A DNA stretch of 63,853 bases, counting the filler, from Octopus bimaculoides (lineage: Eukaryota), in the NCBI RefSeq assembly GCF_001194135.2. It is 5 parts of 5 records of this genome, joined end to end, with 100 filler letters (N's around TTAATTAATTAA, not from the genome) between each part and the next. Parts side by side here need not be neighbours in the genome. Positions count along the whole stretch, not along the records: positions 1 to 14,411 come from NC_068986.1; positions 14,512 to 45,257 come from NC_069004.1; positions 45,358 to 56,068 come from NC_069001.1; 2 more parts are not named here. One strand, written 5' to 3'. A program made the translations under genes and the position numbers. Of this stretch, positions 3,534 to 46,365 are shown in pieces (position 1 is the stretch's first letter; each line of letters begins with the position of its first letter). The notes beneath the pieces are model-generated. The model did no database searches, had not been told where the DNA came from, and was given only the letters and a program-made list of their open reading frames with translations.

Positions 3534-3795
3534 CTGCTCTTTCTGCCCTTCTCTGTACATCGGTCAAATGAGACGCCGCGTAGCTGATCGGTTCGTGGAG
3601 CACCTCCGGGACATCAGACTCGGCAATAACACACCGGTCTCGCGCTGTTTCCGCTCTACCGGTCATTCACTATAACCCCTGTCTGTGTTCGGATTGTCTT
3701 TGCACAGGTGCCATCCGGACTCCCGCCTTCGCTGTGAACAGGAATTAATGTTCTCTCTTCGCTTCTTTGCGTCACATGGACTGAATGCTCCTCTC
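3534..3795 (+). pseudogene. GIY-YIG endonuclease fragment of a Penelope-like element
   Basis: CSFCPSLYIGQMRRRVADRFVEHLRDIRLGNNTPVSRCFRSTGHSL*PLSVFGLSLHRCHPDSRLRCEQELMFSLRFFASHGLN. It has the YIG, EH, EQ..F.L and GLN hallmarks, with one internal stop. Confidence 0.85.
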
Positions 3796-4290
3796 TTCAT
3801 TGATACTACCACCACTCTTCATCTGACACCTGTTTCCTCTCTTCACTCCTACCCACCTCTCCTCTCCTCATCTGACACCTACTACTTCTCTTCACTCCTA
3901 CCCACCTTCTCTCTTCATCGATAATACCCCCACCCCTACCATACACCTACATCCCCACCTCACACCACCACACCATCATCCGCACACCCACACACTATCT
4001 TCTACACACCCGCACATCATCTTCCACACACCCACACGTTACAGACGCACACACTTACACACGCACACATCCATACACGTCAAAGTCACTCGTCCCTATC
4101 CAAACACGCACAGTTACACATTCTCACATACACATATGCACGCACACCTTTGTTTTGTGATCATCAATACTTTAATATCTCTTCTTTCAACCTCTCCTAT
4201 CAAACCATTTTTTTCCAGCCAGTCGCCATGCCTGGCCGCTAAACCCACAAGTTTTTTTTAAATACTCTCTTTGTTTATTTTTCCTTATTC

Positions 4291-4326
4291 CTTTCTGTTG
4301 AAGAGCGTAAGCTCGGAGCATAAAAG
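4291..4326 (+). ncRNA. Degenerate minimal hammerhead-like motif (A6U family)
   Basis: CTTT-CTGTTGA-A-GAGC-GTAA-GCTC-GGAG-CA-TA-AAAG. Stem II is intact; GAAA is mutated to GGAG. Confidence 0.35.
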
Positions 4327-5299
4327 ACTGTCTCACTTTCCCGAGCTTGTTTTTCATACACCTATCTTCGTCTTTTGTTCTTCAGTAAATTTCAACTAAA
4401 TATATATNNNNNNNNNNNNNNNNNNNNNNNNNNNNNNNNNNNNNNNNNNNNNNNNNNNNNNNNNNNNNNNNNNNNNNNNNNNNNNNNNNNNNNNNNNNNN
4501 NNNNNNNNNNNNNNNNNNNNNNNNNNNNNNNNNNNNNNNNNNNNNNNNNNNNNNNNNNNNNNNNNNNNNNNNNNNNNNNNNNNNNNNNNNNNNNNNNNNN
4601 NNNNNNNNNNNNNNNNNNNNNNNNNNNNNNNNNNNNNNNNNNNNNNNNNNNNNNNNAAATAAGAAAAGAAAAAAAGGAAAATGTAAGATAGTAAATACTA
4701 GCACTGGTAATTTTTTTCATTAAGCAAGTTTTTTTTTTAATCAGGATCTTTTTTTATGAGTTCATGTATTTTGTACGACTTGTAGAATGATTATTAAAAC
4801 CCTGTAGTGCAGTTTATAAAATCTGATATAACATTTCTGCTTTCTTAAAATTGATGAACATTATTGCAAAATTGTTCCGAGTAACATCATACCTTTACAT
4901 GAGTTTTTGTTAATTTCATACTTAGAATTGCATTGAATGAGCTAAAAAAAAATGGAGAGTATCCCTTTACCATAATATAACCATGAAATTATGTACAGTA
5001 TCCCTTTACTATATTAAAAATCCCACGGAAATTGCAAAGAAATGTTATCATCGCATGAATATATACTTCATGTGTGATCTATCAACATGCGTTTTCCTCA
5101 ACTATACGTTAACAAAATTATATGTCTCCTATGTATTTACTGAGAAGTTTAGAACACAGCCTCCTACTGATTTAATTAGCTTACGCTATTCGACGGGCTA
5201 ATATCATACTAATCAACATATTGTTTATATGGCCTTACTTAGTGTCTGGACAATGTCTTATAATGCAACGTACGCTGTTTTGTTGTTTAATACAGTTAT

Positions 5300-5720
5300 T
5301 GTGGATGGGTTGGCCTAGCCTGAAATAATCCCTGATTGATCTGAGCATTGTTTGTACATTATACTTGTTACTTTTTCTTGGGGTACAAATGCGGTATCTA
5401 CGAGTAATCTAAATTCTTTTTTTTCTTTCGTGAATTGCTTTCTTTACGTTGCCTTTTATGCGTGTCGTGGACTCGGTACTCGGTGGTGCTATTGTATGTA
5501 ACACCAACTATTTTGTCTTATCTGGACGTGGTTCCTTAATGTTAAATGTGAGAGATAGTTATTTATTGACGTTAAAGGTTGTAGTTCATTAGGCGGGAGA
5601 CAGTAGGCTGGATCTGGTTGGGATTGAGTTACTTTTGCTGTTTTAGAGTCAATTTCCAAGGTCACTGATGGCCGTGCTACAATAGTTGGGCAGATGTTGC
5701 TGGAGAAAAGAGGACGAATG
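5300..5720 (-). pseudogene. Degenerate non-LTR retrotransposon RT C-terminal fragment
   Basis: Minus-strand reading KIVGVTYNSTTEYRVHDT...SIMYKTMLRSIRDY resembles the LGVTFD...LYKTxIRSxLDY thumb region of APE-type LINEs. Confidence 0.5.
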
Positions 5721-44991: not shown

Positions 44992-45257
44992 GAATATAAA
45001 TCTGGACTGTTTAACGGAGAGAAAAGCCCTGGTCAGTCGGTTGGCGAACGCAGCGCTTCTACGGGAGACAGGCGGCAGAAAGTCGCACGGGGCGTCGTTA
45101 ACTGGTCTGTGATGCCCTTAGATGTCCGATCTCGCACGCGCGCTACACTGGAAGTATTAGCAGGTGCAACTTTCCCGGCCCGAGAGGATCGGGAAACCTT
45201 TGAACCACCTCCCATGATAGGGATCAGGGTCGAGAACCAGCCCCGTGAACGAGGAAT
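44992..45257 (+). rRNA. 18S: Isolated fragment of 18S (SSU) rRNA, 3' major domain
   Basis: Universal eukaryotic SSU motifs GGTCTGTGATGCCCTTAGATGT (45104-45125), CGCACGCGCGCTACACTG (45133-45150) and GTGAACGAGGAAT (45245-45257). Ends at an assembly gap. Confidence 0.92.
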
Positions 45258-45467
45258 NNNNNNNNNNNNNNNNNNNNNNNNNNNNNNNNNNNNNNNNNNN
45301 NTTAATTAATTAANNNNNNNNNNNNNNNNNNNNNNNNNNNNNNNNNNNNNNNNNNNNGGGAGCCCATGCCAACATCTCTTCAGTTATCCGGCCAACTGAA
45401 AATTCCTGTGATTTGTTTACCCTTATTATATTTCTCTTTTTTTTTCACAGTAATTTTCAATTGGCCG

Positions 45468-45528
45468 GATGACTGAAGAGATGATGGCATTGGCTCTCAT
45501 CCTGGCATCCGAAACTCGGAGTTTTATC
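45468..45528 (+). ncRNA. Type-I hammerhead-like motif
   Basis: GATGA-CTGAAGA-GATGATGG...CTGGCATC-C-GAA-ACTC-G-GAGT-T-TTATC. Stem I is GATGA/TTATC; the 5' half is duplicated in inverted form at 45360-45410. Confidence 0.55.
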
Positions 45529-46365
45529 ATGGTTACTGAATAAGTGTCATATTTTTACAGATAAATTCCTCTATTTGCATAATATCGAGGTCTCTTTCTT
45601 TGTTTTGTTGTCCTTCCTGTCATATATATATATATTTGTACAGAGAGAGAGAGAGATGTTCAGTCTGAAGAACTAGGCCATGGAACTTAGCGTTGTTTTA
45701 CCAGAGTGAGATTCATTGTCCAAGAACAAAGATGCTTTTTCATACATCCCAATTACAGTAAATGTCCCGTTTCTACATTCTAAACCCCGTTATTTTTCGC
45801 AGATTTATTTCCCCCGCTATTCCCATGGTTACACATGTTCTCCTATATACCCGACACTTTCGATAAAACATCCCGTCTTTATATCGAACGCGACAAAATC
45901 TCGCTAGAACCGATACTGTATATCTCTCCGTTCTTGATTCGCATATATGCTGCAGTGGATTTATACGATTGCTCTGGAAATTTACAATCTTGTCTCCTAA
46001 TATAAGAAATCGGTATTAAATAGAACAAGAAAATAAGTCAGCGAATTCAGCCGAATCTGATAGCGATAGATATTGCTAAAACAACATGGTGTTCAACTCA
46101 AGAATTATCTTTGACATCAAACCATATGTTTGGTGTTTCGTAAATGACGAATTAATGTGTCTGTTTGCTTAGTAGCAACGAATTTCCTATGAATCTAGTT
46201 AGCTATTGAGCTGAGTAAGTACAGGAGGAGACAATTAAATATAAATAGAATGGCCATTTATTAAAGCACTAAAGCAGGTCTTTCTCATTCCATCTCTGGC
46301 CAGAAAATGTTTCAAGTAATAGCATGAAATTACTTCTCCGAGCAACACTGCTGCTATCGCCGACA

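What the first reader, a model, noticed from the sequence alone, without database searches (positions are those of the whole stretch)
3534..45640. Window-wide pattern: ribozyme-tipped, microsatellite-adjacent, often foldback PLE ends as a dispersed short-element class
Seen: hammerhead-like or half-hammerhead motifs occur at about eight loci (4291, 10895-11030, 27291-27887, 29573, 36831, 38182, 39909, 45468), apparently from several sequence families. Most lack coding sequence, several sit in inverted pairs, and several abut (TA)n. Inference: these may be a high-copy class of non-autonomous ribozyme-bearing retroelements (retrozyme-like) or mass PLE end-remnants. They could seed self-cleaving or dsRNA-forming sites in the introns of this genome.
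Basis: inference. Interest (0 to 1): 0.72.

Follow-up and report, generated by a model that had tools for sequence, protein, structure and literature searches.

The report
Penelope retrotransposon stumps carrying hammerheads
The eight spots are short, worn copies from five very common repeat families that carry a small hammerhead RNA motif and mostly end in AT-repeat DNA; they are likely the broken-off tail ends left by Penelope-type jumping genes, an arrangement already described in many animals.

Summary
The motifs are real but mostly decayed: 2 of the 8 loci keep a complete canonical minimal type I hammerhead, and a tuned descriptor finds 4 against 0.14 in shuffles. They fall into five families. 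Three have 659-1,272 exact copies of one 24-29-base word in the genome and run upstream into reverse transcriptase plus GIY-YIG endonuclease remnants: one Neptune-type, two Hydra-type by motif. For the other two no coding link was found. 3' ends are fixed and often abut (TA)n; 5' ends vary; head-to-head pairs join a long and a short end. No true tandem arrays, no non-repeat target duplication, no cleavage-end pile-up or circle joint in three RNA runs. This is the published Penelope-like element (PLE) pattern, not retrozymes. Two oddities: family A has U at core position 6 throughout, and a 5'-end hotspot 100 bases upstream of the predicted cut that is not a separate lineage. The scan noted the same kind of thing on other DNA of this genome. 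Ordinary; low interest.

The parts
3500..3532 (.). (TA)16 at the 5' junction of the family A copy
3534..4399 (+). Family A (Neptune-type PLE), 5'-truncated copy: end of the GIY-YIG frame, 3' untranslated region, hammerhead-like motif, fixed 3' end, then TA repeat and a gap
3535..3801 (+). C-terminal part of a GIY-YIG endonuclease frame, one stop inside
   Evidence: 73% identical to the frame of L049; a sister copy L053 hits Pfam GIY-YIG at E 0.0032, below the curated cut-off
4291..4329 (+). Decayed family A motif (U at core position 6, GAAA box mutated)
10820..10965 (-). Family C copy, canonical core, helix II decayed; head-to-head with the next part
10973..11070 (+). Family C partner copy (core with C at position 4); end beyond 11038 set by eye
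27291..27369 (-). Family C inverted partner, decayed core
27391..27780 (+). Abundant SINE-like repeat inserted between the two C copies (no hammerhead seen)
   Evidence: 164 hits in the fetched loci and window
27811..27959 (+). Family C main copy, decayed core
29473..29672 (-). Family A short copy (about 200 bases), best-kept A motif at 29567-29609, 3' end in TA repeat, 5' end near the family hotspot
36777..36921 (+). Family A short copy, helix II and helix III pair mutated, 3' end lost in an assembly gap
38030..38147 (-). Family E inverted arm (short 3' end), 3' half of the hammerhead only
38165..38406 (+). Family E direct arm (long 3' end with tail), truncated inside helix II so only the 3' half of the hammerhead is left; TA repeat follows
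39758..39973 (+). Family B (Hydra-type PLE by motif) short copy with a complete minimal type I hammerhead at 39909-39956, palindromic helix III
45358..45411 (-). Family D inverted partner, cut by the start of the stretch
45441..45621 (+). Family D (Hydra-type PLE by motif) short copy with a complete type I hammerhead at 45468-45527, long 3' end, then (AT)7

Best explanation
The eight loci are short copies of five high-copy repeat families, three of which run into Penelope-like reverse transcriptase/endonuclease frames in longer copies, and they are likely dead-on-arrival 3' ends of Penelope-like retrotransposons. Shown: fixed 3' ends, variable 5' ends, TA-repeat junctions, head-to-head partners, coding links for A, B, D. 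Inferred (from PMC11167929 and PMC8557442): the element's endonuclease would cut (TA)n; its reverse transcriptase would start inside the RNA a short way 3' of the hammerhead and copy through the uncut or re-joined motif, usually stopping within a few hundred bases, so nearly every insertion is a hammerhead-bearing stump. In B, D and probably C and E both cut ends would be extended, one from each of two start sites, giving a head-to-head pair with one long and one short end. The hammerhead would matter, if at all, for the master element (dimer- or protein-assisted cutting); the scattered copies are predicted to be mostly inert passengers in host transcripts.
For: Coding links: family A copies extend into RT, CxxxxCxxC linker and GIY-YIG, with 118 homologues, most carrying RVT_1 and PF26215, some also GIY-YIG; one locus joins the A motif to GIY-YIG at about 575 bases (L023/L043). 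B: L275 runs RT, CxCx5C linker, endonuclease end, 3' region, hammerhead over about 3.2 kb. D: L229 runs RT, CxCx5C linker, GIY-YIG into the hammerhead; its homologue P0119 carries PF26215. Copy numbers: 1,272, 1,054, 659 exact words, reversed controls 0. TA-type repeat within 8 bases of the 3' end: A 44 of 70, background 1,049 of 13,196; D 23 of 30. 5' ends spread from +25 to beyond -429 in A (99 copies), to -469 in D, 15-428 bases in B. Inverted partner: B 9 of 27, D 12 of 29, E 17 of 29, C 11 of 18, A 0 of 70. D pairs: long plus short end in 17 of 18 distinct pairs, 1 hidden by a gap; B 6 of 10 long plus short, 3 with gaps, 1 short plus short. RNA reads run on into unlike flanks in 79-93% of cases. 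Cervera and de la Pena describe the same: thousands of single minimal motifs, opposite-strand pairs 100-700 bp apart, ascribed to truncated PLEs.
Against: No coding link for families C and E: C copies share at most about 350 bases upstream with no frame found, E 3' sequence adjoins an inverted RT in one locus (L430) whose own downstream region does not match E. Family A 5' ends are not random: 13 of 37 copies that reach -99 stop at -100/-99. Many longer E copies stop about 350 bases upstream, at a TA-rich stretch that 5 of 25 loci show to be part of the element. 4 of 70 A loci hold a second same-strand piece, only one of which (L289, a local duplication) I read. No intact full-length master was found. 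Pfam scans of the decayed frames gave nothing above cut-off.
Confidence: 0.86

Rival explanations
1. Bounded solo pseudo-LTRs: the short family A copies are run-off copies made when reverse transcription starts in the upstream pseudo-LTR of the transcript and ends at its transcription start, about 100 bases 5' of the predicted cut. This refines rather than replaces the main reading.
For: 13 of 37 at-risk copies end at -100/-99 (17.6% per base) against 2.0% just upstream, 2.8% just downstream and 0.2-0.6% beyond -125; the hotspot occurs in both sub-types and is mixed with long copies on the tree. PLE promoters lie in the pseudo-LTR (PMC6765202 passages) and internal priming is shown in vitro (PMC11167929).
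Against: The hotspot is the last AT dinucleotide before 30-45 bases nearly free of AT/TA, and 9 of 13 hotspot copies have a TA-type left flank against 25 of 71 others, so microhomology with the (TA)n target can explain it. No read-start pile-up at that place in three RNA runs (fragmented cDNA of a possibly different species, weak). B and D show no such hotspot.
Confidence: 0.3
2. An independent class of non-autonomous, self-propagating hammerhead elements (retrozyme-like) spreading through small circular RNAs.
For: High copy number, most copies short and non-coding; families C and E have no coding link in my samples; family A hotspot gives a roughly 200-base unit; earlier scan notes report retrozyme-like 340-350-base families elsewhere in this genome (not checked).
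Against: No same-strand second copy within the fetched flanks in B 0 of 27, D 0 of 29, E 0 of 29, C 0 of 18; the two close same-strand A pairs among the first 100 hits are identical duplicates across assembly gaps; hotspot copies are not a lineage (11 label changes, shuffled mean 11.8, 193 of 500 as low); no unit-length go-back joint and no pile-up at the cut in RNA; copies do not begin at the cut (A 0 of 30; D 2 of 30 within 4 bases).
Confidence: 0.06
3. The copies are host-co-opted regulatory parts: self-cleaving or dsRNA-forming sites in introns.
For: Family sequence is present in RNA (1,573-2,490 reads per run for A, 310-429 for B) and one strand-switch joint occurs in all three runs (8, 2, 3 reads).
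Against: 6 of 8 window loci lack a complete canonical motif; copies differ from each other by 3-30% with CpG-type decay even inside the motif; single minimal PLE hammerheads showed no detectable cutting as monomers (PMC4209133); intron location not shown.
Confidence: 0.05
4. Chance matches in AT-rich repetitive DNA.
For: First strict descriptor found none; Rfam none.
Against: 0 of 200 shuffles reach the observed count; each locus is a member of a repeated family whose better copies carry the whole motif.
Confidence: 0.01

Closest known systems
Minimal type I hammerheads in pseudo-LTRs of metazoan Penelope-like elements (Cervera and de la Pena 2014, PMC4209133; read: abstract, results, discussion, part of methods)
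   Same: Minimal or palindromic helix III, an extra base between positions 9 and 10.1, many sequence families per genome, thousands of single motifs, opposite-strand pairs 100-700 bp apart, few copies inside full elements.
   Different: Family A has U at core position 6, not among the variants in the text I read (figures and supplements not seen); B and D have an extra base before the GAAA box; E has a very long helix II.
Hydra-clade PLEs (Craig et al. 2021, PMC8557442; read: passages) for families B and D
   Same: C-terminal endonuclease, CxCx5C linker, hammerheads, insertion into (TA)n, inverted 5' partner, tail at one end only.
   Different: Clade assigned by linker motif only, no tree with reference Hydra proteins; tails here are about 65 (D) and 135 (B) bases, longer than the 30-40 usually given.
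Neptune-clade PLEs (same paper, passages) for family A
   Same: RT, CX2-5CxxC linker, GIY-YIG; microsatellite targeting.
   Different: No inverted partner in 70 copies and a single 3' end; clade by motif, not by tree.
Poseidon of Anolis, PAc (Frangieh et al. 2024, PMC11167929; read: main text and methods)
   Same: Two adjacent internal start sites that leave a tail, AT-rich targets, both strands cut and extended, uncut RNA as template, no RNA-seq ends at the cut site.
   Different: Different clade; that paper saw no strand difference in start site in vitro, whereas D pairs here join one long and one short end in 17 of 18 cases.
Metazoan non-LTR retrozymes (Cervera and de la Pena 2020, PMC7229834, passages; Li et al. 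bioRxiv 10.64898/2026.07.22.740005, first fifth read)
   Same: Short, non-coding, type I hammerhead, PLE-related.
   Different: Retrozymes are tandem 150-450 bp units with canonical motifs and abundant circles; none of these was found here.

Membership tests
Endonuclease-bearing Penelope-like elements | One frame with RT and C-terminal GIY-YIG upstream of the terminal repeat | tested here: met
   Families A, B, D in broken genomic copies
Endonuclease-bearing Penelope-like elements | Same coding link for families C and E | tested here: inconclusive
   No frame linked in about 45 C and 54 E loci plus 9 longer stretches; one ambiguous E locus
Endonuclease-bearing Penelope-like elements | Minimal type I hammerhead in the terminal repeat | tested here: met
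   B, D complete in the window; E complete in 13 of 30 loci by core; C in 5 exact hits; A with a variant core
Endonuclease-bearing Penelope-like elements | Fixed 3' end, 5' truncation | tested here: met
   family A has a 5' hotspot on top of the spread
Endonuclease-bearing Penelope-like elements | Inverted 5' partner and tail at one end | tested here: met
   B, C, D, E; not A (0 of 70)
Endonuclease-bearing Penelope-like elements | Full element in partial tandem (pLTR-ORF-pLTR) | tested here: inconclusive
   No intact copy among those fetched; the assembly has gaps at most TA repeats
Neptune clade (family A) | CX2-5CxxC linker before GIY-YIG | tested here: met
   Frames against the motif given in PMC8557442
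Hydra clade (families B, D) | CxCX5C linker and (TA)n targeting | tested here: met
   Frames; junctions; motif
Neptune / Hydra clades | Placement in an RT tree with reference elements | not tested
   No named reference proteins were in hand
Non-LTR retrozymes | Head-to-tail tandem units of 150-450 bp | tested here: not met
   one same-strand D pair 60 bases apart in the list and 3 of the 4 A extra pieces were not read
Non-LTR retrozymes | Canonical type I hammerhead with loop 1-loop 2 contacts | tested here: not met
   Rfam none; short helix I, minimal motifs
Non-LTR retrozymes | Abundant unit-length linear and circular RNAs | tested here: inconclusive
   No such joint in three ordinary cDNA runs, about 6% of each read, probably a related species; no RNase R or small-RNA data
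Non-LTR retrozymes | Propagation as a lineage separate from the coding element | tested here: not met
   Family A tree, 26 short and 14 long copies, 170 columns, weakly resolved; other families not tested
Hammerhead ribozymes | Self-cleavage | not testable with these tools
   No assay; no cut-site ends in DNA copies or RNA reads

The most novel reading that the evidence does not exclude
Family A carries a natural hammerhead core with U in place of the near-invariant A6 (CUGUNGA) that still cuts as a dimer or with the element's protein, and its thousands of 200-base copies are promoter-to-priming-site solo pseudo-LTRs; together with the strict long-plus-short pairing in the Hydra-type families, the genome would record how each PLE clade integrates and would scatter working cut sites and foldbacks through host transcripts.
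Probability: 0.12. Interest if true: 0.55.

Novelty: new member of a known kind. Interest (0 to 1): 0.2.

Why it matters
As it stands it is repeat annotation: new examples of a described pattern in a genome where (by my searches) PLE hammerheads are not described in print. The useful by-products are testable: a clade contrast (Neptune-type family without inversions, Hydra-type families with paired long and short ends) that bears on the open question of how PLEs integrate, and a family-wide core variant that would widen the hammerhead consensus if it cuts.

Tried and rejected
Rfam: no hit at gathering score; the E-value scan was swamped by microsatellite matches to miRNA models, 150 of 294 rows seen. 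The repeat finder was swamped by N runs and microsatellites. First descriptor missed B and D because it allowed no extra base before GAAA. Pfam on decayed frames: nothing above cut-off. Apparent A tandems were assembly duplicates. Target-site duplications other than TA repeats: 0 of 63 A copies. A first 5'-end measure over-extended into microsatellites and a second stopped at sub-type indels; the affine-gap version was used for A and D. The GIY-YIG piece near C locus L133 belongs to a family A element, not to C. The apparent fixed 5' end of E lies at an internal TA-rich stretch. One search covered the wrong side of L267 and gave nothing. Sequencing-run search: no RNA holder listed among indexed runs; three raw RNA runs added by species label were laid instead. 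Monomer folds and dimer cofolds were not decisive: B gives a dimer through its palindrome, A and D fold otherwise. Lunse et al. (RNA Biol, PLE hammerhead variants) could not be read, so I cannot say whether the U6 core is already described; a search for 'A6U' with hammerhead listed one paper, on twister ribozymes, seen only as a listing. Supplements of PMC4209133 and PMC8557442, which list motifs, were not opened.
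Full report
Setting. The window is five separate pieces of a 2.34-Gb animal genome, AT-rich, dense in microsatellites and broken by gaps. The finding spans three pieces on contigs C6, C24 and C21. The animal is probably an octopus; that rests on my recall of the repeat style and on earlier scan notes, not on a test.

Observation. Reading the eight places shows five sequence families: A at 4291, 29573 and 36831; B at 39909; C at 10895-11030 and 27291-27887; D at 45468; E at 38182. Rfam finds no family at gathering score. 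A minimal type I descriptor finds two complete canonical motifs (39913, 45473) against 0.05 in 200 dinucleotide shuffles, and four with core variants against 0.14; no shuffle reaches either count. The descriptor was relaxed after a stricter one found none, so the enrichment is partly by construction; the family evidence is the stronger check. The other loci are decayed or halved.

Copy number. Exact 24-29-base words give 1,272 (A), 1,054 (B) and 659 (D) hits with reversed controls at 0; these are lower bounds. E gave 904 first-look candidates. C is older: 70-85% identity, 18 and 244 candidates, 5 exact hits.

Link to Penelope-like elements. The window copy at 3534-4399 begins in a GIY-YIG frame. 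Sister copies extend into an RT with a CxxxxCxxC linker; 118 database homologues were found, most with RVT_1 and PF26215, some with GIY-YIG, and one of them scans as RVT_1 plus GIY-YIG. One locus ties the 29573/36831 sub-type to the same endonuclease (L023/L043). For B, L275 runs from RT through a CxCx5C linker and the endonuclease end to the hammerhead. For D, the inverted arm of L229 does the same and has one homologue with PF26215. By the motifs in Craig et al. (passages) A is Neptune-type and B and D are Hydra-type; no tree was made. For C and E no frame could be tied to the repeat; they are placed by anatomy only.

Ends. Position-ordered samples were used for A (70 loci), B (27) and D (29), after dropping 4 loci that were the partner of a pair; E (29) and C (18) are similarity-ranked, 1 partner locus dropped from each. 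The A terminal word was found in 58 of 70, followed by a TA-type repeat within 8 bases in 44, against 7.9% of flank positions; a second A sample gave 17 of 30 and a D sample 23 of 30. No target duplication other than TA repeats was seen in 63 A copies. B and D have two 3' ends: long in 7 of 27 and 19 of 29. Head-to-head partners: A 0 of 70, B 9 of 27, D 12 of 29, E 17 of 29, C 11 of 18; 40 of the 70 A loci had only 900 bases upstream. In D, 21 rows are 18 distinct pairs; 17 join a long and a short end and one is hidden by a gap; 8 of the 18 come from a sample not selected for the tail. In B, 6 of 10 are long plus short, 3 are obscured by gaps, 1 is short plus short. The window's E foldback has the same long-plus-short build. 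This is the one-sided tail of PMC8557442 and PMC3846280 (passages) and fits the two start sites of PMC11167929.

5' ends. B and D ends are spread. In A (99 copies, 93 without a gap at the junction) there is a hotspot: 13 of the 37 copies that reach -99 from the predicted cut stop at -100/-99. It is not a separate element as far as a weak tree can tell: 26 hotspot-region and 14 long copies (3 left out for Ns) need 11 label changes, shuffles 11.8. It may mark the transcription start in the pseudo-LTR, or microhomology with the (TA)n target, since it is the last AT before a stretch nearly free of AT/TA and 9 of 13 have TA-type left flanks against 25 of 71. Samples anchored 3' of the cut show no pile-up of copies starting at it: A 0 of 30, D 2 of 30 within 4 bases.

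Tandems. Same-strand extra copies: B, C, D, E none; A 4 of 70, one read as a local duplication. The two close same-strand A pairs in the first 100 hits are identical duplicates across gaps. One D pair 60 bases apart was not read.

Cores. Family A reads CUGUNGA in 63 of 70 copies, with position 7 free (G 38, U 13, A 12); the search word did not cover positions 3-7. B reads CCGAUGA in 16 and CUGAUGA in 3 of 27 scored, which suggests that the window's canonical core arose by CpG decay (inference). D reads CUGAAGA in 15 of 22 scored, E CUGAUGA in 13 of 19. Whether U6 is already in print I cannot say.

RNA. No indexed holder was on record as RNA. Three raw cDNA runs of 'organism B', about 6% of each read, were laid on one A and one B copy. 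A: 2,490, 2,488 and 1,573 reads, 79-85% running on into unlike sequence, both mate directions alike, no pile-up at the cut or the hotspot, one pile-up of 12 ends at the element's 3' end in one run, and only short local go-back joints. B: 429, 384 and 310 reads, 87-93% running on, no pile-ups, no go-back joint, one strand-switch joint in all three runs. Most reads were 85-95% alike, so the species may differ, and such libraries lose small circles; this is weak evidence.

How it works. Shown are the anatomy and the coding links. Inferred from the papers: endonuclease cutting of (TA)n, internal priming 3' of the hammerhead on uncut RNA, early stopping, and in some clades extension of both ends to give foldbacks. 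Cervera and de la Pena 2014 (results and discussion read) already report massive single minimal motifs and opposite-strand pairs from truncated PLEs, with no monomer cutting; retrozymes are defined by tandem canonical units and circles (passages; first part of the preprint). Searches for octopus with Penelope and hammerhead listed 4 papers, none describing these families in the listing or the passages read; a 2026 octopus repeat annotation mentions PLEs but neither hammerheads nor ribozymes in its main text.

Verdict. New members of a known kind; the retrozyme reading is not supported. Interest 0.2.

Noticed in passing
   Followed up: partly
   Followed up: partly
window 13701-13870 (-): Repeat with a CUGAAGA core and a decayed GAAA box, matched in 6 fetched loci (2 of them the same place); a possible further hammerhead family.
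   Followed up: partly
window 53670-53735 (+): Family D sub-type copy with an internal deletion of the hammerhead's 3' half and the short 3' end, followed by TA repeat (by eye).
   Followed up: partly
window 150-225 (-): Possible old hammerhead relic; no second copy in about 1 Mb of fetched loci.
   Followed up: partly
L024, L028, L078, L181, L185: Copies of different PLE families sit side by side in the same (TA)n, suggesting repeated use of shared target sites.
   Followed up: no
window 27391-27780, 19390-19711, 41713-42014, 50599-50722, 61910-62108: Several copies of one abundant SINE-like repeat with an internal duplication.
   Followed up: no
window 41199-41564 (-): Frame that looks like a decayed mariner-type transposase piece (by eye and recall).
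   Followed up: no
window 57084-57700: Long 9-base-period low-complexity array, open in several frames.
   Followed up: no
L170, L171; window 13868-13981: Identical sequence repeated across short N gaps: unmerged assembly overlaps that mimic tandem copies.
   Followed up: yes
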